64,000 nucleotides of DNA from Candidatus Omnitrophota bacterium (GCA_030681595.1 JAUXSB010000003.1:31207-95206), one strand, 5' to 3'. Positions 30,927-62,997 are shown, numbered from the stretch's first letter. Made by a program: numbers and translations. The notes: generated by a model from the sequence alone, not told the origin.

Positions 30927-31057
30927 AAAATATTTCCGCCGAAGGCGAAACCTCGCCAAACTAAAAGTTTGGCGGGCGAGAACGGCCCGTTATGACCACT
31001 TCGGTACCTCTCCAAAGTAAAAACAATAAATACAAAAACTAAAAATTAAGGAATCTT

Positions 31058-35593: not shown

Positions 35594-35607
35594 AAATTAC
35601 CTTTGCA

Positions 35608-35795
35608 CTTATGGCTTTGGCTAAATTGAAAGCCAAACCATTGCCTTGTGGCTTATGGCTTTGGCTATATTGAAAGCCAAACCATTGCCTTGTGGCTTAT
35701 GCCTTTGGCTATATTGAAAGCCAAACCATTGCCTTGTGGCTTATGCCTTTGGCTATATTGAAAGCCAAACCATTGCCTTACCGGCTTATGCCTTA
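35608..35795. repeat. tandem array, ~4.4 copies of a 44-bp unit (cttatggctttggctatattgaaagccaaaccattgccttgtgg)
   Basis: Read directly with period 44 bp. Copies differ at 1-3 positions. The unit contains the hairpin tttggc-N10-gccaaa. It lies at the left boundary of the low-GC radical SAM island. Confidence 0.85.
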
Positions 35796-36032
35796 TTCAA
35801 ATTTACTATTTTAATTATATCAACTTTCTTCAAATATTGCAACCCAATAAATTACCGCGAGCCTTATTATAGTTATAGCACATAAATTAACTACTGGCGC
35901 AGAAAATAACGCCTTATACATAAGCGCATTAAGGTTACAAGACATTCTGCTATGCAGGCAACACTTCAACTTATCTTTCCGCATTAATGCTCATTTAAAT
36001 ATAATGCTGCTTATGAAAATATTAATGCAGTA

Positions 36033-36956
36033 TCACAAAAACCAGGTTATAAGCGCTCCGGAAAACATCCAAAAGGCAAAGGGCGTAGTTTTCTGAATAG
36101 TTCTTTCGGAATAAAAATCAATTATTTTCTTAAGCATAGGGAACAGCAGCATAATCAATACGGTCGATATGAATGTATTTTTTATTTCAAAAATAAATCT
36201 TTTATCCGTATACACAAAGTATAGTATCAAAAAAACAAAAGTAATCATTATAAATTTGGTATTTTTTTTAAACATTTTGGAAAGCTTTTTAAAAAGCAAT
36301 AGGGCGATCAACATCAAAATATTCTGATCGGGTAAAATCCTACCGATTAAATTTTGTAATGCTTGTCGTAAAACCTTAAAAGCTAGAAAAAGAGTAAGAA
36401 AGCCAAAAAAGACTTTGCTTAATTCAATTTTATTAAATTTACTCTTCTCTTTAATTAATTCTGCGGTTTGCTTCTTTAATTTCCCAAAATTAAATTTTTT
36501 AATAAAGTAGGCGCATGACCGCAAAAAAAGATAAGCTGTCGCCGGTATAAAAATACTTAACAACAATGAAAAGGAAGCAAAGTAATAATTAAAATAAACC
36601 CGAGAATACTGCCCCATTGGAATAAGGGCAGAATAGCAGATAAAAAGCTTCGCATCCCCTGCTCCCCACATCTTAAAATACCATAGCGAATATGCCACAA
36701 TTATACTCGTTATTAAATTAACGCACCATTTGTCAAAATTATGGACTAAACCAGAAGATATTTCTGCTAAAACATTATTCGTAATTCCGCTTAAGGACAG
36801 ATAATAAATAATCCAGGAGGATAAATATAAAACACATGCGTAGATTAATCCTATTAAAATCCACTTATTTCTGATTTTAGAATACCTTAAGTCTTCGTAA
36901 GACGTAACAAGCCCGATAAAGAAAATTATCGGCAAAAAAATAATATTATTAATCAT
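36033..36956 (-). CDS. A24-family aspartic peptidase-like polytopic membrane protein (prepilin/preflagellin peptidase-like)
   Basis: 307 aa with SYEDLRYSKIRN (first catalytic Asp context) and WGAGDAKL (the GxGD-type second Asp motif of PilD/FlaK). Confidence 0.45.
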   Translation of the reverse strand: MINNIIFLPIIFFIGLVTSYEDLRYSKIRNKWILIGLIYACVLYLSSWIIYYLSLSGITNNVLAEISSGLVHNFDKWCVNLITSIIVAYSLWYFKMWGAGDAKLFICYSALIPMGQYSRVYFNYYFASFSLLLSIFIPATAYLFLRSCAYFIKKFNFGKLKKQTAELIKEKSKFNKIELSKVFFGFLTLFLAFKVLRQALQNLIGRILPDQNILMLIALLLFKKLSKMFKKNTKFIMITFVFLILYFVYTDKRFIFEIKNTFISTVLIMLLFPMLKKIIDFYSERTIQKTTPFAFWMFSGALITWFL

Positions 36957-37214
36957 ATAACTAATAAGCTTTGTTAAAATTTATTTTATTTATTCTTGTT
37001 TCTAAATTATTACTATTACAACACATTGGCAACAAACAAGTTATGTATTTTTTAAAGCATCGTTAATAAATAAGGTTATATCTTTGCAACGCATAACCAT
37101 AACGTAACGCATTGCATTACAATAAGTTGTGAAAGAAGATTTCGCAAGATGCCCCTATTTTTAATAAAGCCCTGTAATAAATATTCCTCACGTAATTTTT
37201 TCTGTATTAAAGAT

Positions 37215-37700
37215 TCAAATATTATTGGATAATATCTTTTCCGAAATTTCTAACACCAAGCTTTTCAACTTAGAAAAATTGTTAGCATTTAATTTTAGAT
37301 ATTTATAGTAATATATAACGTAATCATGGTTAAAAAGTATGCCGTTACTCAGTTTATATTCGCCAAGATGCCGTAAAGCGAAAGCTAAATCTATCCAGTT
37401 ATCAAGATTGTCGGGGTTACGAGAAATGGATTTTAAAAAATATTTCTTCGCCTGAGAAAAGTCTTCGGCGATATAATAAATATATCCTGCAAGCGAAAAG
37501 ATTGTTTCTATCTGTTCTTCTTTTAACCAATTTTTAATTTTCCCTTGCAACATTCTTAATTTCTCGGGAGAAGAAAAATAAAGAATGGATAACCGGTAGA
37601 AAAGCGAATCTATCCGTTCAATATAGCCAGAAATATAATTTGTCTGACGAGGCGAGAGATCAAAACCAGCAATATTTTTAAATTCGTTACATATATCCAT
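37215..37700 (-). CDS. TPR-repeat protein
   Basis: 161 aa with TPR-like helical repeats (AKKYFLKSISRNPDNLDNWIDLAFAL). Confidence 0.45.
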   Translation of the reverse strand: MDICNEFKNIAGFDLSPRQTNYISGYIERIDSLFYRLSILYFSSPEKLRMLQGKIKNWLKEEQIETIFSLAGYIYYIAEDFSQAKKYFLKSISRNPDNLDNWIDLAFALRHLGEYKLSNGILFNHDYVIYYYKYLKLNANNFSKLKSLVLEISEKILSNNI

Positions 37701-38770
37701 TAATTAAACTGAACAATAAAAGGTATCTCCGGGGCAAAATTTCTCCTCTGCCATCTGATCCTTCTTATCAACTTGCCATTATTCAAAATCACAACATCTC
37801 TATCCTCTAAAAATACACAGTTTCCTCTTTTTAAGTCACTTTCATAAAGGTTATTTTCAGACATTTGACCAATGAAGTAGACATCTTTATAATGTAACTT
37901 ACCATTTTTAATCTCGCCATCAAAGGCATAAAATTTTATTTCATAAAAGATTAATAGGGGTAGTTTTAAATGCCTATCAATCTTTTCTACAAATTCCGGC
38001 TCTTCCGCATAAATCGCTTTTTTTATTTTTCTGGCCAATTCTATCGTAGCCTTACAATTATAAGCACAAGGCATATGATAGATATAGGAATAGGTAATAT
38101 CCCTAGTACAAGGATTAGATAAATAATGGTATCTATTTTTCTTGGTATTCTTAAATGCTTCATAAAGATAACTATACTTATACCAGTTATTAAACTGTCG
38201 AAAAAAACCGACACAACATTTTGGATATCCAAGGTTATATCCAAATTTAAAAATATCTATACCAGGCCTATCAATTACTCTATGTTTGATTATTAAAGGA
38301 TACCATCCATCTCTAAAACAATTTTCTAAGTTACCTTTTGATTTAGCAATAAATACATGAACAAGGCCATCTTTGCTTGACCCATTAAACGGTAAGCCAA
38401 ATGCATAAGTCGTAGTTAGGCGTTTACCACCTATAACATTTTTTAAAATATTTTTCTTTTTTGACATCCTAAAAACAGTATCGGTCCTTACAATAAGACC
38501 ATAGCGTTTGCATATTCTACGGTATTCATCATATCTATCCACCCTTACCCAGTCGTCCATCGCTGGCTTTATCTCTTTCACTGTAGCCATTATATTCACT
38601 AACTGCCCACTGCCCTTAATCTGGACAAATTCTCTACAGAATTTTTTTGGATAATAGGATTCAAACATTATAGATATAATGAAACTCCATGGCTTTACAG
38701 ACGCAGCACCCAAGAACCGCCTGCGCTTCGTTTTAGCTATGCCTGAAAGCAGGCATAGCTGCGACATCAC
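37700..38770 (-). CDS. hypothetical protein (no rSAM motif), cluster member
   Basis: 356 aa, tightly coupled (start/stop overlaps) with neighbours; GYPKCCVGFF motif of unknown meaning. Confidence 0.3.
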   Translation of the reverse strand: MMSQLCLLSGIAKTKRRRFLGAASVKPWSFIISIMFESYYPKKFCREFVQIKGSGQLVNIMATVKEIKPAMDDWVRVDRYDEYRRICKRYGLIVRTDTVFRMSKKKNILKNVIGGKRLTTTYAFGLPFNGSSKDGLVHVFIAKSKGNLENCFRDGWYPLIIKHRVIDRPGIDIFKFGYNLGYPKCCVGFFRQFNNWYKYSYLYEAFKNTKKNRYHYLSNPCTRDITYSYIYHMPCAYNCKATIELARKIKKAIYAEEPEFVEKIDRHLKLPLLIFYEIKFYAFDGEIKNGKLHYKDVYFIGQMSENNLYESDLKRGNCVFLEDRDVVILNNGKLIRRIRWQRRNFAPEIPFIVQFN

Positions 38771-38794
38771 GCCACAACGCTTTTTGCGGATAAC

Positions 38795-39766
38795 TTAAGC
38801 GCCTTTTATCGGCCTGAATTCTTCAGAGCCATATGCCTTTAAATAATGGACATATGGCCCAAGACAAAGGCTATTGAATACGCACCCACTACAAGAAACC
38901 ACCTTCCTTCTAGAGGTATATTTAAATGAATCATCTTTATTCTTTACACTCACCAAATAACCTCTGGAAATTTTTAATATTACGCATCTGAACATCTCCT
39001 TGTCAATCTTATTAATTATGCAAAATGGCATAGAGAGAAAATATCTTGCAAAATATATAAATAAATCAGAATGATAACGATATCTTTTTGTATACAACTC
39101 TACGGCTTTTTTAAAATACCTTATGACCTTTGTATATCTGGGCATTAGAAAATGGTAAAAAATAAGGGAAGCGGCATGCGGCCTATAATGATCTATCATA
39201 AAACGCATTCCAGGAAACTGTTCAATTTTAAGCCTTACCAAAGATGGAATATCCGCATAATTTTGCGTTAAAAAAATACCGTTTAATGTTACGGGTAAAT
39301 CAAACCGAGATAAATTGTTCAATGCCTCCATCAAATCAACAAATGAACCTGGAGAATTAGTTATCGCATCGTTTATCTTTGCAGTAGATCCGTAAATAGG
39401 AACATGAAATCCATTAGCTCCTGCCGTTACGACTTTCTTTAGAAAAACAAAATTCTTTAATTTTCTTCCCGTGGTTTGAACGGTGATATTTGTAAAAGAT
39501 AATTTACGCGCAAAAACTAATAAATCAATAATGGATGAACGGTTCAGTATTTCGTTACCCGTAAAGCATATCTTGCGAAAACCAAGCGACTTCGCAAGGC
39601 GTATCCTACATTTAATTGTATTTATATCATCCGGCTCATCATGGGTAAGTTGTTGCGTATTTTTTCCATGTACTAATCGGCTGTTCTGACAAAACACGCA
39701 AGAGTTATCGCATTGCGAATCTAATACTAAAATTATTTCATCGTTGTTTTGGAGAATAGGCATCAC
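38795..39766 (-). CDS. radical SAM protein, island paralog family (twitch-like C-terminal 4-Cys)
   Basis: 323 aa with CDNSCVFC and a C-terminal FCIIN...CSGCVFNSLCLG...YGSEEFRPIK. Confidence 0.7.
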   Translation of the reverse strand: MMPILQNNDEIILVLDSQCDNSCVFCQNSRLVHGKNTQQLTHDEPDDINTIKCRIRLAKSLGFRKICFTGNEILNRSSIIDLLVFARKLSFTNITVQTTGRKLKNFVFLKKVVTAGANGFHVPIYGSTAKINDAITNSPGSFVDLMEALNNLSRFDLPVTLNGIFLTQNYADIPSLVRLKIEQFPGMRFMIDHYRPHAASLIFYHFLMPRYTKVIRYFKKAVELYTKRYRYHSDLFIYFARYFLSMPFCIINKIDKEMFRCVILKISRGYLVSVKNKDDSFKYTSRRKVVSCSGCVFNSLCLGPYVHYLKAYGSEEFRPIKGA

Positions 39767-40650
39767 TTAACAGGTTTAAACTCTTGCCACCCAAAAAACT
39801 CAGGATATTCACGCCAGGGTCCCTCGCAAATTTTGAAATATTTGCATTCTTCACACTTCGGCCCTTTAAGTTTTCCATGTTCTCTGCGCCACTGGTTAAA
39901 ATTGGTTATCGGTTTAATATCAAATACCTTGGTTTCAGGAATAATCGCTTCACTAGCACAATTGGCATATTCGCTTAAAAAACAATACGGTATGGCTTCA
40001 GTTTTTGGCATTTTTTTCTTCCTAATGCCAATTTCCAGGCCGCGTTTTAAATAAAGAATAATATCTTTTTTCTGCGGTATTAGCCAACTATGATTCGCTA
40101 ATGCGTTTCCTAAAATATGAGGAAAGGAAAAACGATATTCAACCACCCCTAAGCCAACTAACATCAAAGCAATCTTAGGTAAAAAGCGGTAATTCAATGC
40201 AGTAATAACTGTATTAGTAAATACTACGCGACCAGAAGAAAGGAGATGCTTAATACCACAAATCGTCTGAGCGAAACTTCCCCTCGCTCCCGTATGGCTA
40301 TCATGCAACTCAGCATTATGTCCATGTACCGATATAGTAAAAAGACTTGCACCTGCCTCTATCATTTTTTTACAAAAATCTTTATACCTAAACATTCTTC
40401 CGTTGCTTTGAATATGAACAATATATCCTAACTTTTTAGAATATCTTACCAAGTCTATGATATCAAAACGTATTGTAGGTTCTCCACCTGTAAAAATTAC
40501 CTCTTTATAACTATCTTTCGAATCAGCTAAAATAGTTTCTATCTGTGAGCGCGCCATATCGTTGTAGATTTTGCGCTTGTTACCTTGGACACAAAAACTA
40601 CAGTGGTTATTACATCTAAAACTAATTTTTATATCCAGCCTCTTATGCAT
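39763..40650 (-). CDS. radical SAM protein, island paralog family
   Basis: 295 aa with CNNHCSFC, FTGGEPT, SVHGHNAELHDSHTG, and C-terminal IPYCF...CEECKYFKICEG...FGWQEFKPV. It is a close paralog of 55967-56872. Confidence 0.75.
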   Translation of the reverse strand: MHKRLDIKISFRCNNHCSFCVQGNKRKIYNDMARSQIETILADSKDSYKEVIFTGGEPTIRFDIIDLVRYSKKLGYIVHIQSNGRMFRYKDFCKKMIEAGASLFTISVHGHNAELHDSHTGARGSFAQTICGIKHLLSSGRVVFTNTVITALNYRFLPKIALMLVGLGVVEYRFSFPHILGNALANHSWLIPQKKDIILYLKRGLEIGIRKKKMPKTEAIPYCFLSEYANCASEAIIPETKVFDIKPITNFNQWRREHGKLKGPKCEECKYFKICEGPWREYPEFFGWQEFKPVK

Positions 40651-40681
40651 ACATCTATCCTAACCTTAATTATCCGTTGTC

Positions 40682-41614
40682 TTACGGCTCGCTTTTAACA
40701 TGTTTTATTGTCTCTTCTTTGGAAACAAAAACAGCGTATAGTTCTTGCGAAGAAAAATATTTATCCATCGCATAAAGGCCGGGACATATTTCATTCAAAA
40801 AACAAACACTACAACACTCAACCTTGCCATATGACCATCCTCTTTGGACTTTAAGGCCCTTTTCATCTAAGAAATAAATCGCGCGCTTCTCTCTCTTTAT
40901 TATTTTTCTGGCTTCCGTAGAACAATGTGCAAAATCAGCCATGTAACATAAGGGTACGCGTTCCGCCCTAAAAGTTCTCTTTTGCTCGGCTAAAAAATGC
41001 ATTGCCCTATTGAGCTCTAATTCAAAATCTATCAGTCGGGGAATCGTATCGGGATTTTCTGATGCGCGGTTCATCGAAGGGTCAATATTATTCCAGATAA
41101 AATGGCGAATAAACGGATATCTATTCACAAGCCACGCCGTAATTCTGCTTAAATGATCGGCATTATATTTATTAATCACGGTAATAACATCAACCTGCAA
41201 ATTTAACTTTTTGGCATTGTTAAGCGTTTTTTTAATGTTACATAAAGAATCCTTGTTCTCAGTAAGAAAACCCTGAATATCAGCACTATCAGAGTAGATG
41301 GATAAATTGATATGGTTTAATCCTGCCTCTGCCAATGAGTTAATATATTTAAAGTCGGCTGTTTTTTGGCCATTCGTTATTATTCTGACTGGAAAATTTT
41401 TGTTTGTTGCATACGCGATCAATTCAATGAGATCTGGATATAGGGTCGGCTCTCCTCCGCTTAAAATAACCCCATCGCAACCTATCTTGACATAATAATC
41501 AATTAACTCCTTAGCTTTCTTAAGAGATATGGTTTTATCAAACGACGGATTAGAACAAAATCTGCATTTTTGATTACAAATACGCGTAACCTGTATATAA
41601 GCTAATTCGGCCAT
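40682..41614 (-). CDS. radical SAM protein, island paralog family
   Basis: 310 aa with CNQKCRFC, LSGGEPT, and C-terminal VPLCY...CCSVCFLNEICPG. Confidence 0.7.
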   Translation of the reverse strand: MAELAYIQVTRICNQKCRFCSNPSFDKTISLKKAKELIDYYVKIGCDGVILSGGEPTLYPDLIELIAYATNKNFPVRIITNGQKTADFKYINSLAEAGLNHINLSIYSDSADIQGFLTENKDSLCNIKKTLNNAKKLNLQVDVITVINKYNADHLSRITAWLVNRYPFIRHFIWNNIDPSMNRASENPDTIPRLIDFELELNRAMHFLAEQKRTFRAERVPLCYMADFAHCSTEARKIIKREKRAIYFLDEKGLKVQRGWSYGKVECCSVCFLNEICPGLYAMDKYFSSQELYAVFVSKEETIKHVKSEP

Positions 41615-41618
41615 GTTT

Positions 41619-45693: not shown

Positions 45694-45696
45694 TCT

Positions 45697-47055: not shown

Positions 47056-47063
47056 ATGAATAA

Positions 47064-47990: not shown

Positions 47991-47994
47991 ATCA

Positions 47995-48912: not shown

Positions 48913-48922
48913 TGATAATAGT

Positions 48923-56872: not shown

Positions 56873-57842
56873 TTTTAAGGTAGCGCACGAAAGATGTTAA
56901 AACTTTATCTACTGCCATTGTAGAATCAAAAATCGGCTTAGAGACGCCCTCTTTAATTATTTGCCTAATATTTGCCAAACCGGGAAAATGAGTTTTTATA
57001 AAAGGAAGGCTTCTAACGGACCCGATCTTAAGTTGTTTTCTAAAAGGGGCGAAATATTTAGCCAAAAATAAATTATTTGTGAAAATGTCGCCATTACAGT
57101 CAACGACTAAACCGGCGTTAAATAAAGGAACGGTATTCGTAAAGTCTAAATTCCTAATATAGATATCCATTTTATTTCTGTTCCCTAGTATAAATCTTGC
57201 GATTTTATAAAAATTATTTTTCAACAATTTTATTTTATTTTTATCCCAATAAATAAAATAAGCCGGCAAAAAGTTAAAACGATTAAAACCCAGCTTCAGG
57301 ACATAGATAAAATTATTATAAAATACCTCTGCGGTATTGGGCGCAATAACCATATTTATAGTTACGCGGCCCGGATAAGAAGAAAAGAGTTTGTGTCTAT
57401 TTAAAATTATTGTATCAAACGATTCTTTTTTATTCTTTGTAATCCTATTGCGTAATTGGGTATCTCGATCGCCATCTAAACTTATAATTAATTCTATATC
57501 CCTGTTTGTCTTTAAAAAATCTATGATTTTATTGTTTAATAACGACCCGTTGGTCGTCAGTTGAAATTGAATTTTTTTATGCAAAATTTCCGCTTTTTTT
57601 CTTGCGAATATTATAATATCCCTTAGCAAAGCAAAATTCATTAATGGCTCGCCGCCGGAAAATTTGATTAAACAATTATCGGGCGCGATTTTCAAAAAAA
57701 AATCTACGGATATTATGGCGATATCATAATTTATCTTTGAAAAATCACGTATGGTTGGACAATACCGGCACTGGAAATTACAGCGATGGTTTATTATAAT
57801 TATTAGTTGCGGGGGGAGCGAATTAATATTACCATTGGCCAT
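56859..57842 (-). CDS. radical SAM protein adjacent to the His-Xaa-Ser precursor (HxsB/HxsC-like partner)
   Basis: INHRCNFQCRYC. I moved the start to ATG 57842 (MANGNINSLPP...), overlapping the last 4 codons of the precursor. The track N-terminal extension MAPMAPMAP is the alternate frame of the precursor's 9-bp DNA repeat. Confidence 0.6.
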   Translation of the reverse strand: MANGNINSLPPQLIIIINHRCNFQCRYCPTIRDFSKINYDIAIISVDFFLKIAPDNCLIKFSGGEPLMNFALLRDIIIFARKKAEILHKKIQFQLTTNGSLLNNKIIDFLKTNRDIELIISLDGDRDTQLRNRITKNKKESFDTIILNRHKLFSSYPGRVTINMVIAPNTAEVFYNNFIYVLKLGFNRFNFLPAYFIYWDKNKIKLLKNNFYKIARFILGNRNKMDIYIRNLDFTNTVPLFNAGLVVDCNGDIFTNNLFLAKYFAPFRKQLKIGSVRSLPFIKTHFPGLANIRQIIKEGVSKPIFDSTMAVDKVLTSFVRYLKNEKS

Positions 57843-58125
57843 GAGAACCATGGGAACTATGGGAGCCATGGGAGCCATGGGAGCCATGCGGAGTGCCCGA
57901 ATTATGCCCTCCTCTGCCGGCTGTAACAAGAGCATTAGCATGGTTATTATGCGAAGCATGGCTGGCAGCCTGGGCAGAATCAGGCTTAAACATCGCGGAT
58001 AAAACAGCTAAAGATATCCCTATCTTAGCGATATCCTTTTTGCTAATTTTACCTTCTTCTCTTAAAAGGAAATCTTTTATTTGCTTCTTGATCCGCGGTA
58101 ACCTACTTTCGTTTTTTTCTTTCAT
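57829..58125 (-). CDS. His-Xaa-Ser repeat precursor protein (HxsA-like)
   Basis: 98 aa. Charged N-region, hydrophobic IAKIGISLAVLSAMF, AQA-AS signal-peptidase-like site, then a His-rich core ASHASHNNHANALVTAGRGGHNSGTPHGSHGSHGSHSSHGSHGQW. G-rich SD 4 nt before the ATG. It is encoded by a ccatgggag tandem DNA repeat. Confidence 0.6.
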   Translation of the reverse strand: MKEKNESRLPRIKKQIKDFLLREEGKISKKDIAKIGISLAVLSAMFKPDSAQAASHASHNNHANALVTAGRGGHNSGTPHGSHGSHGSHSSHGSHGQW

Positions 58126-58154
58126 CGTACCCCCCCCTTGCTTATAGCTAGAAA

Positions 58155-58895
58155 CTACTCTACCGGCTGTCTATCGGCTTCTTTAGAAAAACTATCTTTT
58201 GAAGCTGGATAATACTGTTCAAAGAAATTTCTAAAACTTTTGCATTTCTTGCAAACACTCTCATCCCGTGATACGCTGCCTTTACATAACATGCTAAGGT
58301 ATTCATCGCTTATCTCATTACACTTATTAACATCATTAGTTTCCAACGCCTGTATATAATAAACCCTACCGGTGCACTTCTTATCCCCTTTACTGCAATA
58401 CTTAGGGTCTCTAAGCCTAAGCGCCATACAGTCATTTTTCTGGTCCTTACTTATTGAATTATCACACGCAGCAACATCTTGAGCAAAAAAACTGTCCGCT
58501 ACTTTACGGCAATCTACGGCAGTTGGTTTACCTTCCTGTTTCTGGCAGGCCTCCATAAACTTCTGGGTAACAGAACCCATCACAACCAGTTCGCTAAAAA
58601 ATCTGTGGAAACCATAGAAATTACGCCTACATAAATTAGCTTCATCTTTCGATAAATTATTGCATACACTTACGTTATCTCTAGCGGCTGCTAAACACGT
58701 CAGATATGTATCTAAAAAACCCTGCCTTTTCGAATAACCTTCAAATATAACTTTACTTAAATTGTCTATATTAAAATCATTGATTGCTTGTTCCTTGGCA
58801 TTATCTTCGGCCAAAGCATTACAATTATTAAACCCAACTAAAAAGCATCCACCCAACAAAGCTATTACTAAAAACCTGAATATGAAAGTTTTCAT
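58155..58895 (-). CDS. secreted Cys-rich lipoprotein-like protein
   Basis: Start taken at ATG 58895, which overlaps the upstream gene stop as ATGA. MKTFIFRFLVIALLGGC lipobox-like signal. About 18 Cys residues scattered through the mature part. Confidence 0.45.
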   Translation of the reverse strand: MKTFIFRFLVIALLGGCFLVGFNNCNALAEDNAKEQAINDFNIDNLSKVIFEGYSKRQGFLDTYLTCLAAARDNVSVCNNLSKDEANLCRRNFYGFHRFFSELVVMGSVTQKFMEACQKQEGKPTAVDCRKVADSFFAQDVAACDNSISKDQKNDCMALRLRDPKYCSKGDKKCTGRVYYIQALETNDVNKCNEISDEYLSMLCKGSVSRDESVCKKCKSFRNFFEQYYPASKDSFSKEADRQPVE

Positions 58896-60361
58896 AGCGC
58901 CGCCTTTCCTTTCGTGCAATCTTTTACCCAGCGTTCAAATATATTCTTATATTGACTATTCTGTAATTTTTCAAAGAGATAGTCCAAAATCGCGCCGTTA
59001 ATCTTACATCTTCCATTAAAAGGCTGAAATATATTTTTGCTTTCCGTATAATTTAATAAAGGGCACACACCGCAATATGGTTTATAGACACATTGGCTGC
59101 ACTCAGGGATATTATCTAAACAGGAGCTTATACACATCGCCTTAACAGTTGGATGCTCAATTATATTTTTATATGTGTCGGTTTTTACGTTTCCGACCTT
59201 AAATGATTCATCTCCTAGCCTGCTAAGCATCCTGCCTTCGTCGCATGTGTAGATATCACCGTTATAATTATAAGCTACTTGGCCGATACCGGCGCCGCAA
59301 GGAGAGCGCATATCCATATAGCCGGGGTCATAATCAGTAAGTATTTTATATAGGAATATGAACGCCGTCCTCTCGTAAAAATTGCTTCCTTTTAAATTTA
59401 ACTCTAAGATATAATCCAGGGATTCTTTATAAAACTCAATAAATTCTCCCCACGAATACGCGAGGCTATCCGCCTTGGGCGCCAATGCAAATGTGGACAA
59501 GGGACGTAAATGGATACAATCTAATCCACCCTTTATATACTCATCAATAATCTCTTTGGAATGGCCGAAACAACGATTGGTCACCGTCAATAATGCATTT
59601 GGGCGGTGCTTAAAACCCGTTTTTTCAAATTCTATTTTTATCTTCCTAAGCCACTTTACGGTATTGCGGTAGCTATTGATATTCTTATTAAGGCTTACGC
59701 GATTTCTATTATGTATATGTTCCGGGCCATCAAGCGATGTACAAATACTTACGTCATTTTTTATTAAAAATTTTAATATCTCATCTGTTAAACAACTCAA
59801 ATTAGAAACAAGAGAAAGCGTTAATTTTTTTTCTTTATTCTTATTTTTTTTCTTGGCATATTCAATTATAAATTTTACTGTATTAAAATTAAGTAACGGC
59901 TCTCCTCCTTGAAATTCGATAGTAATTTCGGGGGCCGGAAATTCAAAAATTTTATCAACAACAGACTTGGCTGTCGGGATATCCATATCTAAACCGGCCG
60001 TCTTAATGCCTCCGGAGTTAGCTTGACAATAGGCGCATTTGTGGTCGCATCTTAATGTTACCACTATTATATGCAAGCTAGTCCCTCGAGATAAAAAATC
60101 GTGCTTGTTTGCATATTTGGCAATTAACTTATCAAAATCTAATTTATTACGCACAAAACTTTTGTTTATAAGCTCATCGTATTTAACCTCATCCTGCTTC
60201 ATAATCTCGTTAATCTCTCCCTTTATGAAGCTATTAAACCAGCCCGGTTTTAAAAAACAGTATTCTCCTACATCATTAGTGACAAGATAGCTGCCGTTAA
60301 ACCTCTTGAAACGAAAGTATGAAACCGCTTTCTTGTCAATCAAATTTACATCTATAGCCAT
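58892..60361 (-). CDS. radical SAM/SPASM-domain maturase (HxsB-like)
   Basis: 489 aa with VVTLRCDHKCAYC rSAM motif and a C-terminal SPASM-type Cys cluster CGAG...YTCDEG...CISSCLDNIPECSQCVYKPYCGVCP. Confidence 0.65.
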   Translation of the reverse strand: MAIDVNLIDKKAVSYFRFKRFNGSYLVTNDVGEYCFLKPGWFNSFIKGEINEIMKQDEVKYDELINKSFVRNKLDFDKLIAKYANKHDFLSRGTSLHIIVVTLRCDHKCAYCQANSGGIKTAGLDMDIPTAKSVVDKIFEFPAPEITIEFQGGEPLLNFNTVKFIIEYAKKKNKNKEKKLTLSLVSNLSCLTDEILKFLIKNDVSICTSLDGPEHIHNRNRVSLNKNINSYRNTVKWLRKIKIEFEKTGFKHRPNALLTVTNRCFGHSKEIIDEYIKGGLDCIHLRPLSTFALAPKADSLAYSWGEFIEFYKESLDYILELNLKGSNFYERTAFIFLYKILTDYDPGYMDMRSPCGAGIGQVAYNYNGDIYTCDEGRMLSRLGDESFKVGNVKTDTYKNIIEHPTVKAMCISSCLDNIPECSQCVYKPYCGVCPLLNYTESKNIFQPFNGRCKINGAILDYLFEKLQNSQYKNIFERWVKDCTKGKAAL

Positions 60362-60561
60362 TCTTTATTACTCCATAAGGCATAATTGGCAAACTCGTCA
60401 ACAAATACTTTTTTAAAATCTTGATCAATATCATTTATTTCTACCTGCGTATAGTTTTTAGTATTTTTAATTATAAATTTCGCCAAATGGGCATAAGCCG
60501 AAACTGCCGCTTTAACCGCCCTCCTATTATATAATTTATTATTAAACTTTAGATTCCACAT
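60352..60561 (-). CDS. small protein coupled to the SPASM maturase (possible HxsD-like)
   Basis: 69 aa, overlapping both neighbours by 10-20 nt; DEFANYALW motif. The HxsD assignment is from memory of that family only. Confidence 0.25.
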   Translation of the reverse strand: MWNLKFNNKLYNRRAVKAAVSAYAHLAKFIIKNTKNYTQVEINDIDQDFKKVFVDEFANYALWSNKEWL

Positions 60562-60967
60562 TATCTTTTTTTACTTTTTTATTTTTACCGTATTTATCTT
60601 CCCAGGGCACAGCTATCCCAAGCGGATCATCGCGATAATCCAGCTTTTCATCAGAAGAAAACAAATCAAAATTTGAATCCGGCGGAGTAGAGTATAGGGC
60701 ACGGGCAACAACATATTCGCGTATCTTCTTATTATTTTTACTTACTATACACCTTAAAGCAGAATATAATAGTTCATTCATAAAGCTATCTTTCAGTAAC
60801 TCTATTTGCCTATCGGAAAGTTTCTTTTTGGGCTTAAGCGAAACTACCACCTTCTCGTCTTTACCGGCATCTAAATCCAGAAAAAAATAAATAGAATCAA
60901 TAAAAAGATAACACGTGCTTAAAATGGCTTCTAACGGATATATTTTGGTTCTTAGTTCTATTTTCAT
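60542..60967 (-). CDS. hypothetical protein
   Basis: 141 aa ORF translationally coupled to the downstream gene. Confidence 0.3.
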   Translation of the reverse strand: MKIELRTKIYPLEAILSTCYLFIDSIYFFLDLDAGKDEKVVVSLKPKKKLSDRQIELLKDSFMNELLYSALRCIVSKNNKKIREYVVARALYSTPPDSNFDLFSSDEKLDYRDDPLGIAVPWEDKYGKNKKVKKDNVESKV

Positions 60968-61010
60968 GCCTCACCTTTTTTAAAAAGCTAATCTGGATAT
61001 CACTACAATA

Positions 61011-61601
61011 CTATGTTTCACAACACATCATCGATCCGGCTTTAGGCAAAACCATATCCGTACAGCTTGTGCTAGCTGCTGAAGTAGTGCAAGTCCCGCC
61101 TTGCGTAAAAGGTATATAAGACAAGCGTGAAGTGCAACTCTCCCCCGCATCAGTACAGACACCATTATTATTCCAATCGCCGCATTGCATCAACGAAGGA
61201 ACATCATTAGCAGTAAAAGTCATCAGACGACAACCGAGTCCTGCGGCTTGAATTCGCGCAAGCTGAGCAGTCCGAATATTCCAGAAAGTTACAGTATTTG
61301 AGAATGTCGCTCCATCACTAATTCTTATCTCTAAATCATTAGCTCCGGCATCACCGCCGATACCGATTACATCTCCATAACCTGTCCTAACTATGGCGAA
61401 ATTCGGCCACCAAGTAACATCACCAACAGGAAAACCAACCCTAGCTCGTTGCGCTTCAAGGTCTCCGTAAACCCCAAAAGGCGAAGGGTAATAATTAGTG
61501 ATGGTGATATCTTCAGCTTGAGATAAAACAGGGGATGCGGAAAATAAAAGGCAGGAAAAAGAAAAAAGAAAAACAGCAACAATTAATTTTACCTTTTGCA
61601 T
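61011..61601 (-). CDS. secreted protein with Cys-rich C-terminus (first gene of the island)
   Basis: 196 aa with signal peptide MQKVKLIVAVFLFSFSCLLFSASPVLSQA. The C-terminal 60 aa contain 9 Cys and end in CCET. Confidence 0.4.
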   Translation of the reverse strand: MQKVKLIVAVFLFSFSCLLFSASPVLSQAEDITITNYYPSPFGVYGDLEAQRARVGFPVGDVTWWPNFAIVRTGYGDVIGIGGDAGANDLEIRISDGATFSNTVTFWNIRTAQLARIQAAGLGCRLMTFTANDVPSLMQCGDWNNNGVCTDAGESCTSRLSYIPFTQGGTCTTSAASTSCTDMVLPKAGSMMCCET

Positions 61602-61674
61602 AAAAGATAATTAGTGATACTTTATGATATAATTTTAATTTACAACTTAAATATACCTCAATTACCCACGGCTG

Positions 61675-62997
61675 TCAACTTATTTTTGCCTTGCTTTTAA
61701 GCTTTCCAATCATTACGCCTGAAGCACATTCCACTAAGAGCGCTTTTATTAACCTGTTTTTTAAATCAGCGCGGCTTTTAATCAAAACTTTAATATAGTT
61801 ATCTGTATGGCCCTGCCAAAAATACGGCTCTTCTTTAGAACGGTTTTCAATAAGCACAAAAGGTTCCTTACCTAGAAACCTCTTTCGATAAACCAAAGAA
61901 CAATCGTTGGCGACACCTTTAAGATATGCCGCTCTGCGTTTAACTGTTTGCGGCGCGATATTACTTTTAAATTTTTTTGCCGCGGCCGTAGGCTCTCTTC
62001 TGGAATAACAAAAGATATGTGTCCTTAGGGGGTTAATCTCCCTGATTAAATTAACGGTGTTTTGAAAATTTTCTTCGCTCTCACAAGGAAAACCTACTAA
62101 GACATCAGTAGTAATAGCAATACCTTCAATCAACCCTTTTATCTCATTAATCAGCCGTAAGTACGTGGCGCTATCATAATTACGATTCATCATTTTTAAA
62201 ATACTGTCGTCGCCTGACTGCAGCGGAATATGCAAATGCCGGCATAATTTTTTCGAACTGCGTAATTTTCTAATTAAGGCGGCATTAACATCCATTGGCT
62301 CAATAGAGCTTAAGCGGATGCGTAAAAGGCCGCCGATATTTTCCAGGCTTTCTATTACTTCAACTAAATTTGCCTCCTGAAGGCCATCCTTACCGTAGGA
62401 ACCTAAGCATATGCCGCATAAGACGATCTCTTTAACCCCGGTTTTTACCAAACGCTCTGCCTCAAGCGTAACCTCTGAAAGCGTACGGCTGCGGGACCGC
62501 CCACGCACATAAGGGACTTTACAGAAACTGCAAAAGTTGTTGCAGCCATCTTGTATTTTTAAAAAAGCGCGGGTATTACCTTTAAAAACGCCTATACCAT
62601 CAGGAAAAAAGCTTTTAGAGATGATGAAATCTACATCGGGCACACCGGAAAGAGACGGGGCATCTTTTTGCGCTAAACACCCTGTTACAATAATTTTAGC
62701 ATCGGGATTTTCTCTTTTTATGCGCCGGATAAGCTCACGGCTCTTTGCATCGGCAACAGCAGTAACTGTACAGGTATTAATCAGGCAGAAACGCGAAGGA
62801 CAACCGTTATCAAGCTCTTCAAAACCGGCGCGCATAAAGCGTGCCCTGATGCTCTGTGTATCGTATTGATTGACTTTACAACCAAGAGTATAAAATTTAA
62901 TGGTTCGACTACGTGCTTCGACAGGCTCAGCATCCTGAGCGGAGTCGAAGGACTCACCATTAATCCTGAGCGAAGTCGAATGGTTAATTGTTTTCAT
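61675..62997 (-). CDS. MiaB/RimO/MtaB-family radical SAM methylthiotransferase
   Basis: 440 aa with MTTase N-domain FYTLGCKVNQYDTQ, rSAM IQDGCNNFCSFC, and a C-terminal TRAM-like region. Confidence 0.75.
   Translation of the reverse strand: MKTINHSTSLRINGESFDSAQDAEPVEARSRTIKFYTLGCKVNQYDTQSIRARFMRAGFEELDNGCPSRFCLINTCTVTAVADAKSRELIRRIKRENPDAKIIVTGCLAQKDAPSLSGVPDVDFIISKSFFPDGIGVFKGNTRAFLKIQDGCNNFCSFCKVPYVRGRSRSRTLSEVTLEAERLVKTGVKEIVLCGICLGSYGKDGLQEANLVEVIESLENIGGLLRIRLSSIEPMDVNAALIRKLRSSKKLCRHLHIPLQSGDDSILKMMNRNYDSATYLRLINEIKGLIEGIAITTDVLVGFPCESEENFQNTVNLIREINPLRTHIFCYSRREPTAAAKKFKSNIAPQTVKRRAAYLKGVANDCSLVYRKRFLGKEPFVLIENRSKEEPYFWQGHTDNYIKVLIKSRADLKNRLIKALLVECASGVMIGKLKSKAKIS

What the first reader, a model, noticed from the sequence alone, without database searches (positions are those of the whole stretch)
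35594..61675. The rSAM island is compositionally distinct (low GC) and bounded by a tandem repeat array
Spot GC counts on 60-nt lines give about 30-40% inside the island (lines 42001, 47401 and 55321). Flanking chromosomal genes give about 43-67% (hppA line 9001, MCP lines 20581 and 24601, MiaB-like line 62401), with some AT-rich flanking lines as well. Island proteins are strongly Asn/Lys/Ile/Tyr-rich. The left edge is the 4.4-copy 44-bp tandem array (35608-35795) and the right edge is a 73-bp AT-rich gap before the MiaB-like gene. This looks like horizontally acquired DNA or a fast-evolving accessory locus.
Basis: seen in the sequence. Interest (0 to 1): 0.6.

Follow-up and report, generated by a model that had tools for sequence, protein, structure and literature searches.

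The report
Low-GC His-Xaa-Ser radical SAM cluster
A 26-kb AT-rich block in an uncultured Omnitrophota genome is a giant version of the His-Xaa-Ser peptide-maturation (antiphage-type) system with 17 radical SAM enzymes, and its low GC is a long-standing trait of this cluster within the phylum, not evidence of recent foreign import.

Summary
The compositional observation is real. GC is 0.345 between about 35,792 and 61,018 and 0.420 outside, with no overlap between 1-kb windows.

The block is one co-directional cluster in a Candidatus Omnitrophota MAG: an expanded "type 4" His-Xaa-Ser (HXS) system. It encodes HxsD, HxsD-like, HxsB, a 98-aa HxsA4 precursor, two Cys-rich secreted proteins, 16 further radical SAM genes and an A24-type membrane peptidase.

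Recent foreign acquisition is not supported:
- No integrase, transposase, tRNA or att repeats sit at the edges.
- The dinucleotide signature lies within the native range.
- The named HxsB relatives and nearly all named peptidase relatives are from Omnitrophota.
- The same cluster sits directly downstream of rsmE-mtaB in three other lineages (MtaB 48-58% identical), and a fifth lineage has a related cluster on the other side of that block.
- The GC dip recurs in all 7 closest related clusters.

It still behaves as an accessory locus. It is absent from this site in some relatives, lies elsewhere in others, its rSAM content varies, and flank and island distances disagree.

The tandem array looks like the hairpin leader of the neighbouring operon, not an island junction. 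The compositional finding is ordinary. The cluster is an undescribed variant of a known system.

The parts
61650..61678 (-). Promoter-like site (TTGACA-17-TATATT, 11 of 12) in the 73-bp AT-rich gap, upstream of the first cluster gene
   Evidence: gap GC 0.247. Consensus match only, not proof of function.
61011..61601 (-). First cluster gene: 196-aa secreted Cys-rich protein (signal peptide, conserved ITITxYYPSPFGVY motif, C-terminal GS..xCC)
   Evidence: No Pfam or NCBIfam family. Homologs precede HxsD in L082, L084, L086 and L154. GC 0.438 but GC4 0.287.
60542..60967 (-). HxsD
   Evidence: TIGR03976 55.4 bits, above the cutoff of 50. NCBI names it HxsD, MDP1852673.1.
60352..60561 (-). HxsD-like protein, 69 aa
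   Evidence: NF038315 64.8 bits, above the cutoff of 41. NCBI MDP1852672.1.
58892..60361 (-). HxsB, radical SAM/SPASM maturase
   Evidence: TIGR03978 490 bits, above the cutoff of 370; SPASM domain present. Named relatives at 49-57% identity are Omnitrophota apart from two candidate-phylum bins.
58155..58919 (-). Cys-rich secreted protein (about 246-254 aa; start codon uncertain), conserved between hxsB and hxsA
   Evidence: No family hit. Orthologs in the same position in L082, L084, L086 and L154; 9 invariant Cys in alignment A2.
57829..58125 (-). hxsA4 precursor, 98 aa: conserved leader (IKDFLL.EEGKI), hydrophobic segment, AQA-A site, then a His/Ser/Gly-rich core ending GSHGSHGSHSSHGSHGQW
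   Evidence: NF038313 60.7 bits, above the cutoff of 55. No Pfam domain. Strong Shine-Dalgarno GGGGGGGG about 5 nt before the ATG. Alignment A1. It is the only HxS-repeat ORF in the window.
57838..57893 (-). 9-bp tandem repeat (x6.1) that encodes the GSH repeats of HxsA4
56859..57842 (-). Radical SAM enzyme resembling the HxsB/PapB N-terminal part, without a SPASM domain. The ORF runs on to 57,959, but that extension is the other-frame reading of the hxsA repeats
   Evidence: Orthologs in L084 (52%), L082, L154 and L136.
38795..56872 (-). Array of 15 more radical SAM genes plus one unknown gene. HxsC-like genes (12 genes, 13 domains): 55967-56872, 54030-54977, 53114-54082, 50801-51742, 47995-48912, 47064-47990, 44731-45693, 42644-44734 (fused double), 41619-42644, 40682-41614, 39763-40650, 38795-39766. 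HemN-like: 51720-53114, 45697-47055. B12-binding rSAM: 48923-50455. Unknown 335 aa: 54970-55977
   Evidence: Pfam and NCBIfam. Every domain has CX3CX2C. The HxsC-like set shares invariant CX3CX2C, a GGEP-type motif and C-terminal CX2CX5C. Paralogs are 21-35% identical, at most 50%. Collinear one-to-one orthologs at 42-71% in L084/L090.
37700..38770 (-). Unknown 356-aa protein with a weak DUF483 match
   Evidence: PF04467 22.3 bits, below the cutoff of 25. Not found in the relatives' clusters.
37215..37700 (-). TPR-repeat protein, 161 aa
36033..36956 (-). Last cluster gene: A24-type (prepilin-peptidase-like) polytopic membrane aspartyl peptidase
   Evidence: PF01478 24.3 bits, below the cutoff of 26.5. 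GAGDAK motif at residue 98 and Asp22 present. About 115 related clusters, named ones mostly Omnitrophota, and at least 12 sit on contigs of the same length as HxsB-carrying contigs. It ends the cluster in L088, L090, L154, L166 and (nearly) L136.
35909..35927 (-). Terminator-like hairpin after the last cluster gene
   Evidence: consensus match
35814..35842 (-). Promoter-like site (TTGCAA-17-TG-TATAAT, 10 of 12) for the next transcription unit
35608..35794 (-). 44-bp x4.25 tandem array. Each unit folds into a hairpin. It lies between that promoter and the ATG (35,593) of a 78-aa ORF that overlaps yeiH, and is read here as the 5' leader of the neighbouring operon, outside the low-GC block
   Evidence: Fold -73.2 kcal/mol, z = -4.2. 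No copy elsewhere in the window or in the 170 loci held at that point.

Best explanation
The low-GC block is a single co-directional gene cluster (window 36,033-61,601, minus strand). It is an expanded 'type 4' His-Xaa-Ser (HXS) maturation system in a Candidatus Omnitrophota genome.

Shown:
- The cluster encodes bona fide HxsD, HxsD-like, HxsB and a 98-aa HxsA4 precursor, two conserved Cys-rich secreted proteins, 16 further radical SAM genes with intact Fe-S motifs, and a terminal A24-type membrane peptidase.
- The same module order recurs in many Omnitrophota genomes.
- The cluster lies directly downstream of rsmE-mtaB in this genome and three other deeply diverged lineages.
- It is AT-richer than its flanks in all the closest related clusters.

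Inferred about its history: the cluster belongs to the Omnitrophota accessory gene pool and has long been linked to the rsmE-mtaB neighbourhood. It is lost, moved or swapped between lineages over long times. Its AT-richness is a standing property of the cluster. The likely causes are AT-biased mutation acting on weakly constrained, probably low-expressed accessory genes, and circulation of cluster variants within the phylum. It is not the unameliorated mark of a recent foreign insertion.

Inferred about how it works, by analogy with the E. coli HXS system (PMC13128918):
1. HxsA4 is made in the cytoplasm, and its leader is held by HxsD or HxsD-like.
2. HxsB and the HxsC-type enzymes, plus the HemN-like and B12-dependent rSAMs, install radical-mediated modifications in the His/Ser/Gly-rich core.
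3. The peptide is processed at its AQA-A site or by the A24-type peptidase and exported to the periplasm.
4. There it acts as a defence-type effector, possibly against phage DNA entry.

The 44-bp array is the hairpin-rich 5' leader of the adjacent 78-aa-ORF/yeiH unit, not an island junction.
For: Composition.

Identity of the cluster:
- NCBIfam hits above curated cutoffs for HxsB (490 against 370), HxsD (55.4 against 50), HxsD-like (64.8 against 41) and HxsA4 (60.7 against 55).
- 17 rSAM genes with 18 CX3CX2C domains.
- Conserved auxiliary-cluster motif in the HxsC-like set.
- Tight or overlapping gene spacing throughout.
- NCBI's own annotation names HxsA4, HxsD, HxsD-like and HxsB.

Native to the phylum: the named HxsB relatives are Omnitrophota apart from two candidate-phylum bins, and most named A24-like relatives are too.

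Same locus in other lineages: L082/L083 (Memo/AMMECR1-rsmE-mtaB-x-HxsD-HxsD'-HxsB...), L004 and L154. L185 has the cluster on the other side of the same block.

Old, individually kept paralogs: within-genome identity is 21-35%, yet there are collinear one-to-one orthologs at 42-71% in L084/L090.

Recurring GC dip:
- L082/L088: 0.41 and 0.40 in the flanks, 0.31-0.32 in the island.
- L084/L090: 0.38-0.39 in the flanks, 0.34-0.35 in the island.
- L086: 0.44 to 0.405. L154: 0.42 to 0.35-0.39, then back to 0.41-0.43.
- All 7 measurable clusters with HxsB at least 50% identical have arrays lower than their upstream flank. Across all loci it is 17 of 24 (Wilcoxon p = 0.027).

No mobility marks. Dinucleotide delta* is 51 between island and flank, against 25-67 for native 5-kb chunks. 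The composition-corrected tetranucleotide correlation is 0.93, against 0.956 within the flank. GC skew is continuous, -0.136 against -0.153.

Array as a leader.
Against: - Silent sites are also AT-shifted (GC4 0.42 against 0.50) and the edges are sharp. A fairly recent arrival from a lower-GC Omnitrophota donor would give the same picture.
- Flank and island similarities disagree. RsmE and MtaB place the window nearer L154, while HxsD, HxsB, HxsA, A24 and the 55967 ortholog place it nearer L082. This points to lateral exchange, or to a rate change in L154.
- The cluster is absent downstream of mtaB in L005 and L008, and no island-protein hits were found downstream of mtaB in L009, L010, L014 or L019. 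It lies at unrelated loci in L084 and L086. The far-side flank is not conserved in any relative.
- The nearest available relative has only 59% MtaB identity, so no empty-site comparison was possible.
- The GC dip is not universal in more distant clusters.
- The B12-rSAM has sparse relatives, at most 46% identical, in several candidate phyla.
- The cause of the AT bias, the chemistry of the 17 enzymes and any antiphage role are untested here.
Confidence: 0.65

Rival explanations
1. Recent horizontal acquisition: the 25-kb block was inserted not long ago from a lower-GC donor and has not yet ameliorated.
For: GC, GC3 and GC4 are all lower, with sharp change-points. The site is empty in L005 and L008. 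Flank and island distances are incongruent.
Against: No integrase, transposase, edge tRNA or att-like repeats. A homologous cluster sits at the same site in three other deeply diverged lineages. The di- and tetranucleotide signatures are within or close to the native range. GC skew is continuous. Named relatives of both end genes are nearly all Omnitrophota. The same AT offset is seen in 7 of 7 closest clusters in other hosts, which chance donor composition would not give. Viral contigs hold only HxsB relatives at 40% identity or less.
Confidence: 0.12
2. Cassette replacement at a conserved hotspot: the rsmE-mtaB-adjacent site has long held an HXS cluster, but the present version was swapped in by recombination from another, lower-GC Omnitrophota lineage. 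That would be horizontal transfer within the phylum.
For: In three-way identities, both flank genes pair the window with L154, while 5 of 6 island genes pair it with L082. The HxsB relative in L084 (61% identical, among the closest found) sits at a different locus. The rSAM content differs between syntenic clusters: 17, 9 and 6 rSAM genes.
Against: Only three taxa and two flank genes were compared, so faster evolution of the reduced L154 cluster could mimic the pattern. No recombination junctions or repeats were seen. This does not by itself explain why clusters are AT-richer than their hosts in 7 of 7 close cases.
Confidence: 0.3
3. The low GC is only a by-product of protein composition, because radical SAM and Fe-S enzymes are rich in Asn, Lys, Tyr, Phe and Cys. 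On this view there is no difference in mutational or selective regime.
For: Asn, Tyr, Phe and Cys are enriched 1.5-1.8x and Ala, Val, Glu and Gly are depleted. GC1 drops by about 0.10.
Against: Fourfold-degenerate sites also drop (0.496 to 0.421) and GC3 falls by about 0.10. The intergenic gaps inside the block are AT-rich too (0.26-0.34). The flanking radical SAM gene mtaB has normal GC, 0.419. The Gly/Ala-rich 196-aa gene still has GC4 0.287.
Confidence: 0.05
4. A functional rival: the product is not a defence effector. It could be a His-rich metal-binding peptide or metallophore, a peptide-derived cofactor, or an antibiotic-type RiPP. The extra rSAM enzymes might instead act on the two Cys-rich secreted proteins.
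For: The core has 10 His in about 45 residues and lacks the peptidoglycan-binding domain of E. coli HxsA. Two Cys-rich secreted proteins are conserved in the module. The HemN-like and B12-rSAM genes suggest methylation-type tailoring. PADLOC gives only generic viperin-like rSAM matches.
Against: The HxsB, HxsD and HxsA families are the same as in the only experimentally studied HXS system, which is antiphage (PMC13128918). PADLOC-DB 2023 predates that paper, so its silence says little. No transporter, TonB receptor or immunity gene is present in the cluster.
Confidence: 0.3
5. The 44-bp tandem array is a junction or mobility relic of the island, such as an att site, a REP/BIME-type element or a degenerate CRISPR array.
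For: It lies within a few bases of the left compositional change-point. Each unit is an imperfect palindrome.
Against: There is no matching copy at the right edge or anywhere else in the window. None was found in the 170 loci held at that point. The units are contiguous with no spacers. The array's GC (0.433) is host-like. It lies downstream of a promoter-like site and runs up to the next gene's ATG. There is no Rfam match.
Confidence: 0.07

Closest known systems
HXS antiphage system of E. coli and Klebsiella (HxsD-HxsB-HxsC-HxsA; Li et al., Nat Commun 2026, PMC13128918; families first defined by Haft and Basu 2011, as cited in PMC9062424)
   Same: HxsB and HxsD meet the same curated family models. 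There is a His-Xaa-Ser repeat substrate. The radical SAM enzymes are clustered with the substrate in a chromosomal locus, not a prophage. Export of the product to the periplasm is predicted here too.
   Different: - 17 rSAM genes instead of 2.
- No protein reaches the HxsC cutoff.
- Gene order is X-D-D'-B-Y-A-rSAMs-peptidase instead of D-B-C-A.
- The substrate is a 98-aa peptide without a peptidoglycan-binding domain, against 214 aa with one.
- It adds two Cys-rich secreted proteins, an HxsD-like protein, and TPR and A24-type peptidase genes.
- The host phylum is Omnitrophota, whereas the paper reports 99.7% of systems in Pseudomonadota and more than 99.8% with four genes.
NCBIfam 'type 4' HXS models: HxsA4 (NF038313), HxsC4 (NF038332, 'rSAM_rare_HxsC4') and HxsD-like (NF038315)
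   Same: HxsA4 and HxsD-like pass their cutoffs, and PGAP already names them in this MAG. Most of the small rSAM paralogs have HxsC4 or HxsC as their best family.
   Different: No paralog comes near the HxsC4 cutoff. The best single-domain score is 166 bits, against a cutoff of 500. No paper describing type 4 or its multi-rSAM arrays was found.
Classical genomic or defence islands (compositionally deviant accessory DNA; established general knowledge, from memory)
   Same: An AT-shifted, sharply bounded, accessory, defence-type gene set with patchy distribution among relatives.
   Different: No integrase, tRNA or att marks. The same chromosomal neighbourhood is kept across lineages with about 50% protein identity. 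The genome signature is close to native.
Multi-radical-SAM RiPP pathways such as the proteusins (polytheonamide), recalled from memory and not tested here
   Same: A ribosomal precursor with a leader, several rSAM tailoring enzymes, and B12-dependent rSAM methyltransferase-type genes.
   Different: As far as I recall, those pathways use a few rSAM enzymes iteratively. Here 13 HxsC-like domains are kept as separate, individually conserved lineages.

Membership tests
His-Xaa-Ser (HXS) system | HxsB-type radical SAM/SPASM maturase | tested here: met
   TIGR03978 490.4 bits against a cutoff of 370, full-length match
His-Xaa-Ser (HXS) system | HxsD small partner protein | tested here: met
   TIGR03976 55.4 bits against a cutoff of 50. 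A second, HxsD-like protein scores 64.8 on NF038315 against a cutoff of 41.
His-Xaa-Ser (HXS) system | Substrate protein with His-Xaa-Ser repeats (HxsA) | tested here: met
   NF038313 (HxsA4) 60.7 bits against a cutoff of 55. It has 7 H-x-S motifs and 10 His in the core.
His-Xaa-Ser (HXS) system | HxsC-type second radical SAM enzyme (equivalog TIGR03977) | tested here: not met
   The best single-domain score is 104 bits (55967-56872). The fused double enzyme sums to 187 bits. The cutoff is 267.9.
His-Xaa-Ser (HXS) system | [quoted passage not shown] | tested here: not met
   The cluster has 26 genes. The order is secreted protein, D, D-like, B, Cys-rich protein, A, 16 rSAM genes and others, peptidase.
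His-Xaa-Ser (HXS) system | HxsA carries a peptidoglycan-binding domain (E. coli effector) | tested here: not met
   The peptide is 98 aa and has no Pfam domain.
His-Xaa-Ser (HXS) system | Confers resistance to phage by blocking DNA entry | not testable with these tools
   Needs an experiment. PADLOC 2023 has no HXS models.
HxsC4 (NCBIfam NF038332) | Score at or above the curated cutoff of 500 bits | tested here: not met
   Scores range from 56 to 217 bits. The 217 is the fused two-domain protein.
Horizontally acquired genomic island | Base composition deviates from the flanking genome | tested here: met
   GC 0.345 against 0.420, and GC4 0.421 against 0.496
Horizontally acquired genomic island | Mobility genes (integrase, transposase, conjugation or phage genes) | tested here: not met
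   None were found among the cluster genes or the roughly 20 nearest flank genes scanned.
Horizontally acquired genomic island | Insertion next to a tRNA gene and/or flanking direct repeats | tested here: not met
   The only tRNA (Ser-CGA, 30,838-30,927) is about 5 kb and three genes away. No repeat pair spans the island.
Horizontally acquired genomic island | Oligonucleotide signature foreign to the host | tested here: inconclusive
   delta* is 51 against 39 within the flank. Island 5-kb chunks score 47-69 and native chunks 25-67. The tetranucleotide correlation is 0.93 against 0.956. This is a slight shift, not outside the native spread, and only 64 kb of host sequence was available.
Horizontally acquired genomic island | Absent from the same site in related genomes | tested here: inconclusive
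   Present at the site in L082/L083, L004 and L154. Absent in L005 and L008, with no island hits downstream of mtaB in L009, L010, L014 or L019. No relative closer than 59% MtaB identity was available.
Peptidase A24 (prepilin peptidase) | Pfam PF01478 at the gathering score, and the two catalytic Asp motifs | tested here: inconclusive
   24.3 bits against a cutoff of 26.5. GAGDAK (GxGD) and an N-terminal Asp in YEDLRY are present. NCBI names it prepilin peptidase.
CRISPR or REP/BIME-type repeat array (for the 44-bp array) | Repeats separated by unique spacers (CRISPR), or many dispersed genomic copies (REP) | tested here: not met
   The units are contiguous with no spacers. There are no other copies in the 64-kb window or in the 170 loci held at that point. 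The rest of the genome could not be searched.

The most novel reading that the evidence does not exclude
The cluster would be an undescribed class of HXS-derived pathway. At least 13 individually conserved HxsC-type radical SAM domains, two HemN-like enzymes and one B12-dependent enzyme would successively remodel one 45-residue His/Ser/Gly-rich peptide, or the two co-conserved Cys-rich secreted proteins, into a heavily modified periplasmic product. That would make it one of the most radical-SAM-dense maturation pathways known. It would be widespread in Omnitrophota and stably linked to the rsmE-mtaB neighbourhood. Its persistent AT-richness would be maintained by selection, for example for silencing or controlled expression of a costly defence module, and not by drift.
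Probability: 0.25. Interest if true: 0.75.

Novelty: new variant of a known kind. Interest (0 to 1): 0.42.

Why it matters
For genome scanning, this is a clear example where a sharp GC and codon discontinuity does not mean recent foreign DNA. Homologous clusters in other genomes carry the same AT offset, and three other lineages have the cluster at the same site. Composition alone would have mislabelled it.

For biology, the HXS system has only just been given a function: antiphage defence through an rSAM-matured periplasmic effector with an unexplained +8 Da modification. It was reported as a four-gene, essentially proteobacterial system. These Omnitrophota clusters show that:
- the HxsB/HxsD/HxsA core is common in another phylum;
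- the precursor there is a small leader-plus-repeat peptide;
- up to 17 radical SAM enzymes accompany it, kept as distinct orthologous lineages.

This gives natural variation that could help work out what HxsB- and HxsC-type enzymes do chemically.

Tried and rejected
1. One rSAM enzyme per HxS repeat. Across about 35 clusters the rSAM count does not follow the number of His or HxS motifs. Peptides with 16-20 repeats have 1-2 extra rSAMs, while the window has 7 motifs and 16 extra rSAMs. Rejected.
2. A phage or prophage vector. IMG/VR holds only HxsB relatives at 40% identity or less, none from the Omnitrophota clade.
3. att-type repeats or inverted repeats spanning the island. None were found. 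The long repeat families are just the conserved GGEP-type motif of the paralogs.
4. Structured RNAs or riboswitches at the edges. Rfam finds only the tRNA.
5. Recent tandem amplification of one rSAM gene. Paralogs are 21-35% identical (at most 50%) and have one-to-one orthologs elsewhere.
6. PADLOC defence models. Only generic viperin-like rSAM hits, which are uninformative because the library predates the HXS paper.
7. It could not be done. The closest genome in the species-level collection has 59% MtaB identity and gene order on the far side is not conserved.
8. The 44-bp unit in related loci. No match.
9. Further precursor genes in the 345-bp and 258-bp internal gaps. Nothing convincing.
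10. Literature on HxsA4/HxsC4 or on multi-rSAM arrays in Omnitrophota. None found.
11. Structure prediction of the unknown proteins was not attempted. Alignments built from locus sequences are not accepted by the tool, and single-sequence models would be weak.

Full report
OBSERVATION

The window is almost entirely coded on the minus strand. GC in 1-kb windows is 0.39-0.49 from 1 to 35 kb and from 61 to 64 kb, and 0.29-0.38 from 36 to 61 kb. The two sets do not overlap: 0.421 +/- 0.023 against 0.345 +/- 0.023, Mann-Whitney p = 2.6e-11.

A maximum-likelihood two-change-point model places the edges at 35,792 and 61,018 and gains 184 log-likelihood units over a uniform model. The drop is seen at codon positions 1, 2 and 3, at fourfold-degenerate sites (0.496 to 0.421) and in the internal intergenic gaps (0.26-0.34).

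The 44-bp array is at 35,608-35,794 with 4.25 copies and 96% matches. The 73-bp gap at 61,602-61,674 has GC 0.247.

Three corrections are needed:
- The first gene (61,011-61,601) has ordinary bulk GC (0.438) because its product is rich in Gly, Ala, Thr, Ser and Cys. Its GC4 is 0.287, so it belongs to the block.
- Asn, Tyr, Phe and Cys are enriched 1.5-1.8x, Lys only 1.16x, and Ile not at all.
- The array lies outside the low-GC block, on one side only.

WHAT IS THERE

Pfam and NCBIfam scans show one tightly packed cluster. Most gene junctions are 31 nt or less, or overlap. In order of transcription it contains:
1. A promoter-like site in the 73-bp gap (11 of 12 matches).
2. A 196-aa secreted Cys-rich protein.
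3. HxsD (TIGR03976, above cutoff).
4. A 69-aa HxsD-like protein (NF038315, above cutoff).
5. HxsB (TIGR03978, 490 bits against a cutoff of 370, with SPASM).
6. A roughly 250-aa Cys-rich secreted protein.
7. A 98-aa HxsA4 precursor (NF038313, above cutoff).
8. Sixteen further radical SAM genes.
9. Two unknown genes and a TPR protein.
10. An A24-type membrane aspartyl peptidase (GxGD motif present).
11. A terminator-like hairpin.

The precursor has a strong Shine-Dalgarno sequence. Its GSH repeats are encoded by a 9-bp tandem repeat. It is the only HxS-repeat ORF in the window.

The 17 rSAM genes carry 18 CX3CX2C motifs. Twelve genes (13 domains, one fused double) are HxsC-like, two are HemN-like, one is B12-binding, one resembles the N-terminal part of HxsB without SPASM, and one is HxsB itself.

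The HxsC-like set keeps invariant CX3CX2C and a C-terminal CX2CX5C motif, with a conserved GGEP-type motif. These look like working enzymes with an auxiliary cluster. None reaches the curated cutoff of HxsC (267.9 bits) or HxsC4 (500 bits).

SOURCE AND PUBLIC ANNOTATION

HxsB and the other proteins match an NCBI MAG of Candidatus Omnitrophota exactly (307-kb contig, locus tags Q8L26_004xx). PGAP already names HxsA4, HxsD, HxsD-like and HxsB there, and leaves the rest as 'radical SAM protein' or 'hypothetical protein'.

IS IT FOREIGN?

1. Mobility marks. There is no integrase or transposase in the cluster or in the roughly 20 nearest flank genes. Those flank genes are chemotaxis genes, a CDF transporter, DeoC, an ADH, a methyltransferase, LptD, ROK and YeiH on one side, and MtaB and RsmE on the other. 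The only tRNA is about 5 kb away. No direct or inverted repeat pair spans the block. GC skew is continuous across it.

2. Genome signature. The dinucleotide delta* between island and flank is 51. The two flank halves differ by 39, native 5-kb chunks score 25-67 and island chunks 47-69. The composition-corrected tetranucleotide correlation is 0.93, against 0.956 within the flank. Base composition differs, but the signature barely does.

3. Relatives of the island genes. HxsB has thousands of homologs. Among the 120 best listed (49-62% identical), the named ones (49-57%) are Omnitrophota/Omnitrophica, plus one Schekmanbacteria and one Azambacteria bin. The A24-type peptidase family is small (about 115 clusters), its named members are mostly Omnitrophota, and at least 12 members sit on contigs of the same length as HxsB-carrying contigs.

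4. Synteny.
- In GCA_028716625.1 (L082/L088, a 984-kb contig) the order is Memo/AMMECR1, rsmE, mtaB, secreted protein, HxsD, HxsD-like, HxsB, Cys-rich protein, HxsA, eight rSAM genes, A24 peptidase. This is the same site and layout in about 15 kb.
- L004 has rsmE, mtaB, a PP-loop protein, HxsD, HxsD-like and an HxsC-like gene up to the contig end.
- L154 (a 130-kb metagenome contig) has rsmE, mtaB, secreted protein, HxsD, HxsB, Cys-rich protein, HxsA, four rSAM genes and A24, in about 9 kb.
- L185 has an HxsD/rSAM cluster on the other side of the same Memo/AMMECR1-rsmE-mtaB block.
- MtaB identities to the window in these genomes are only 48-58%, so the linkage is old.

5. The paralogs are old and individually kept. 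Within the window they are 21-35% identical, at most 50%. Yet L084/L090 (GCA_964536195.1, a roughly 27-kb cluster at a different locus) has collinear one-to-one orthologs of 47064, 42644, 41619, 40682, 39763, 55967, 56859 and 44731 at 42-71% identity.

6. The GC dip recurs.
- L082/L088: flanks 0.408 and 0.404, island 0.324 and 0.308. GC3 is 0.396 in the L082 flank against 0.271 in the island.
- L084/L090: flanks 0.377 and 0.391, island 0.341 and 0.354.
- L086: 0.444 against 0.405.
- L154: 0.42, then 0.35-0.39, then 0.41-0.43.
- In a survey of 80 metagenome loci found with an HxsB profile, the rSAM array is AT-richer than the upstream flank in all 7 measurable clusters with HxsB at least 50% identical, and in 17 of 24 overall (Wilcoxon p = 0.027).
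- Random donor composition would not give a one-sided offset.

IT IS STILL AN ACCESSORY, MOVABLE LOCUS

- Downstream of mtaB, L005 and L008 have unrelated genes and hppA within 2 kb. No island-protein hits were found downstream of mtaB in L009, L010, L014 or L019.
- L084 and L086 carry the cluster at other loci.
- The far-side flank is different in every relative.
- The rSAM gene count ranges from about 3 to 17.
- The B12-rSAM has only sparse relatives, at most 46% identical, although the best ones also sit in rSAM arrays.
- Three-way identities disagree. RsmE and MtaB place the window nearer L154 (49% and 58%, against 45% and 49% for L082). HxsD, HxsB, HxsA, A24 and the 55967 ortholog place it nearer L082 (57%, 57%, 64%, 53%, 59%, against 43%, 49%, 52%, 38%, 48%).

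That last pattern suggests exchange of cluster variants within the phylum at a conserved site, or faster evolution of the reduced L154 cluster. Three taxa cannot decide between these.

The nearest genome in the species-level collection is 59% identical in MtaB. The decisive empty-site comparison in a close relative therefore could not be made.

THE TANDEM ARRAY

On the transcribed strand the order is:
1. The last cluster gene (stop at 36,033).
2. A terminator-like hairpin (35,927-35,909).
3. A promoter-like site with an extended -10 (35,842-35,814, 10 of 12 matches).
4. The four 44-bp units (35,794-35,608).
5. The ATG of a 78-aa ORF (35,593) that overlaps yeiH.

The region folds into four similar hairpins, with an energy of -73.2 kcal/mol and z = -4.2. 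Its GC is host-like at 0.433. It has no other copy in the window or in the 170 loci held at that point, and no Rfam match.

I read it as the 5' leader of the neighbouring unit. This is an inference from position only.

HOW IT MOST LIKELY WORKS

The only studied HXS system, from E. coli, is a four-gene antiphage system. [quoted passage not shown] Mature HxsA then acts in the periplasm against phage DNA entry. HxsC binds HxsD (PMC13128918). That paper reports 99.7% of systems in Pseudomonadota and more than 99.8% with four genes.

In the window, the precursor family (alignment A1) has four parts:
- a conserved leader (IKDFLL.EEGKI.KK);
- a hydrophobic segment;
- an A-x-A site;
- a core of the form H.SH.NH...GGRGGH.SGTPH(GSH)nGQW.

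There is no peptidoglycan-binding domain.

Inferred mechanism:
1. The leader is bound by HxsD or HxsD-like.
2. Radical modification of the core is done by HxsB and the HxsC-type enzymes, with HemN-like and B12-dependent enzymes adding further tailoring.
3. The peptide is cleaved and exported, by signal peptidase at AQA-A and/or by the conserved A24-type peptidase.
4. It takes up a periplasmic, defence-type role.

The idea that each enzyme serves one repeat is rejected. What the extra enzymes act on is open. It could be the non-repeat part of the core, which is conserved in the multi-rSAM clade, or the two Cys-rich secreted proteins.

WHY THE CLUSTER IS AT-RICH

This part is inference. The offset is systematic, affects silent sites, and persists over divergences of about 50% protein identity. 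The simplest account rests on established general knowledge, recalled and not tested here: mutation is AT-biased in bacteria, and accessory or mobile genes are typically AT-richer than their hosts. That bias would act on weakly constrained, probably low-expressed genes, possibly reinforced by circulation of the cluster within an AT-richer accessory gene pool.

VERDICT

The 'recent HGT' reading is not supported, and the 'accessory locus' reading is. As a compositional finding it is ordinary.

The object behind it is a new variant of a known kind. It is an HXS system expanded to 17 radical SAM genes, common in Omnitrophota, already partly named by NCBIfam and PGAP, but not described in the literature I could search.

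Noticed in passing
window 57,829-58,125 and 57,842-57,959 (minus strand); L001: The gene calls on the Logan copy of this contig omit hxsA4. They extend the downstream rSAM ORF across it instead, and the extension (MAPMAPMAPIVPM...) is just the other-frame reading of the 9-bp GSH repeat. PGAP rescues hxsA4 with its 'exception' model.
   Followed up: partly
L084:12161-12457 against L085:7985-8263; window 57,838-57,893: Two near-identical clusters from different samples differ by a 6-residue deletion within the (GSH)n tail of HxsA (98 aa against 92 aa). Across metagenomes the tail ranges from about 4 to about 25 repeats. The 9-bp DNA repeat therefore seems prone to slippage, giving repeat-number polymorphism in the substrate peptide.
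   Followed up: partly
L001:408-2009; L082:4420-5925; L185:15415-18046: A fused Memo+AMMECR1 gene sits immediately upstream of rsmE-mtaB in this genome and its relatives. In L185 a 369-aa radical SAM gene directly precedes it. From memory this resembles the 'AmmeMemoRadiSam' trio. It is a second rSAM-linked system next to the HXS cluster.
   Followed up: no
L004:9094-10077: In L004 a 327-aa PP-loop-type ATPase (SGGKDS motif; weak argininosuccinate synthase and QueC N-terminal hits) lies between mtaB and HxsD, where the window has the secreted Cys-rich protein.
   Followed up: partly
window 37,700-38,770: A 356-aa protein with a weak DUF483 match and a GYPKCC motif, with 10 Cys. Together with the TPR gene (37,215-37,700) and the rSAM gene at 38,795-39,766, it is an insertion relative to L090, where the 39763 ortholog abuts the A24 peptidase.
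   Followed up: partly
window 54,970-55,977: A 335-aa Asn/Lys/Tyr/Phe-rich protein inside the rSAM array, with no CX3CX2C motif and no family hit. Its only relative seen was a 26% match in L136 (5693-6601), in the same relative position.
   Followed up: partly
window 35,357-35,593: A 78-aa ORF with no family hit. It overlaps the yeiH start by 8 nt and is preceded by the four-hairpin 44-bp array. Whether it is a real gene or part of a long yeiH leader is unknown.
   Followed up: partly
L149 (HxsA-like ORF within about 2.5 kb downstream of hxsB); L086, L091, L132, L155: Some HxsA-like peptides have different repeat chemistry, for example (HSSC)n in L149, and different C-terminal ends (GGWC, SSY or GSW instead of GQW). 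This suggests subfamilies of the substrate.
   Followed up: no
L099, L105, L108, L125, L137, L151, L162, L165, L169: HxsB relatives at 39-50% identity also occur on contigs with GC 0.6-0.73, far above the low-GC clade containing the window. The HxsA4-type system therefore extends to quite different hosts whose taxonomy is not known.
   Followed up: no
L186:9085-10722; L090:1-1802; L084:15338-18148: Related arrays contain unusual fusions: rSAM fused to a metallophosphatase, a 1,293-aa multi-rSAM protein, and a 936-aa B12-rSAM.
   Followed up: no
window 8,548-8,581; 21,753-21,891; 23,444-23,491: Other short tandem repeats in the flank: a 7-bp x4.9 repeat in the gap between the genes at 7,905-8,543 and 8,680-10,800 (hppA); AT-rich 14- and 19-bp repeats between an MCP gene and the cheA-like gene; and an 18-bp x2.7 repeat inside the cheA-like gene.
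   Followed up: no
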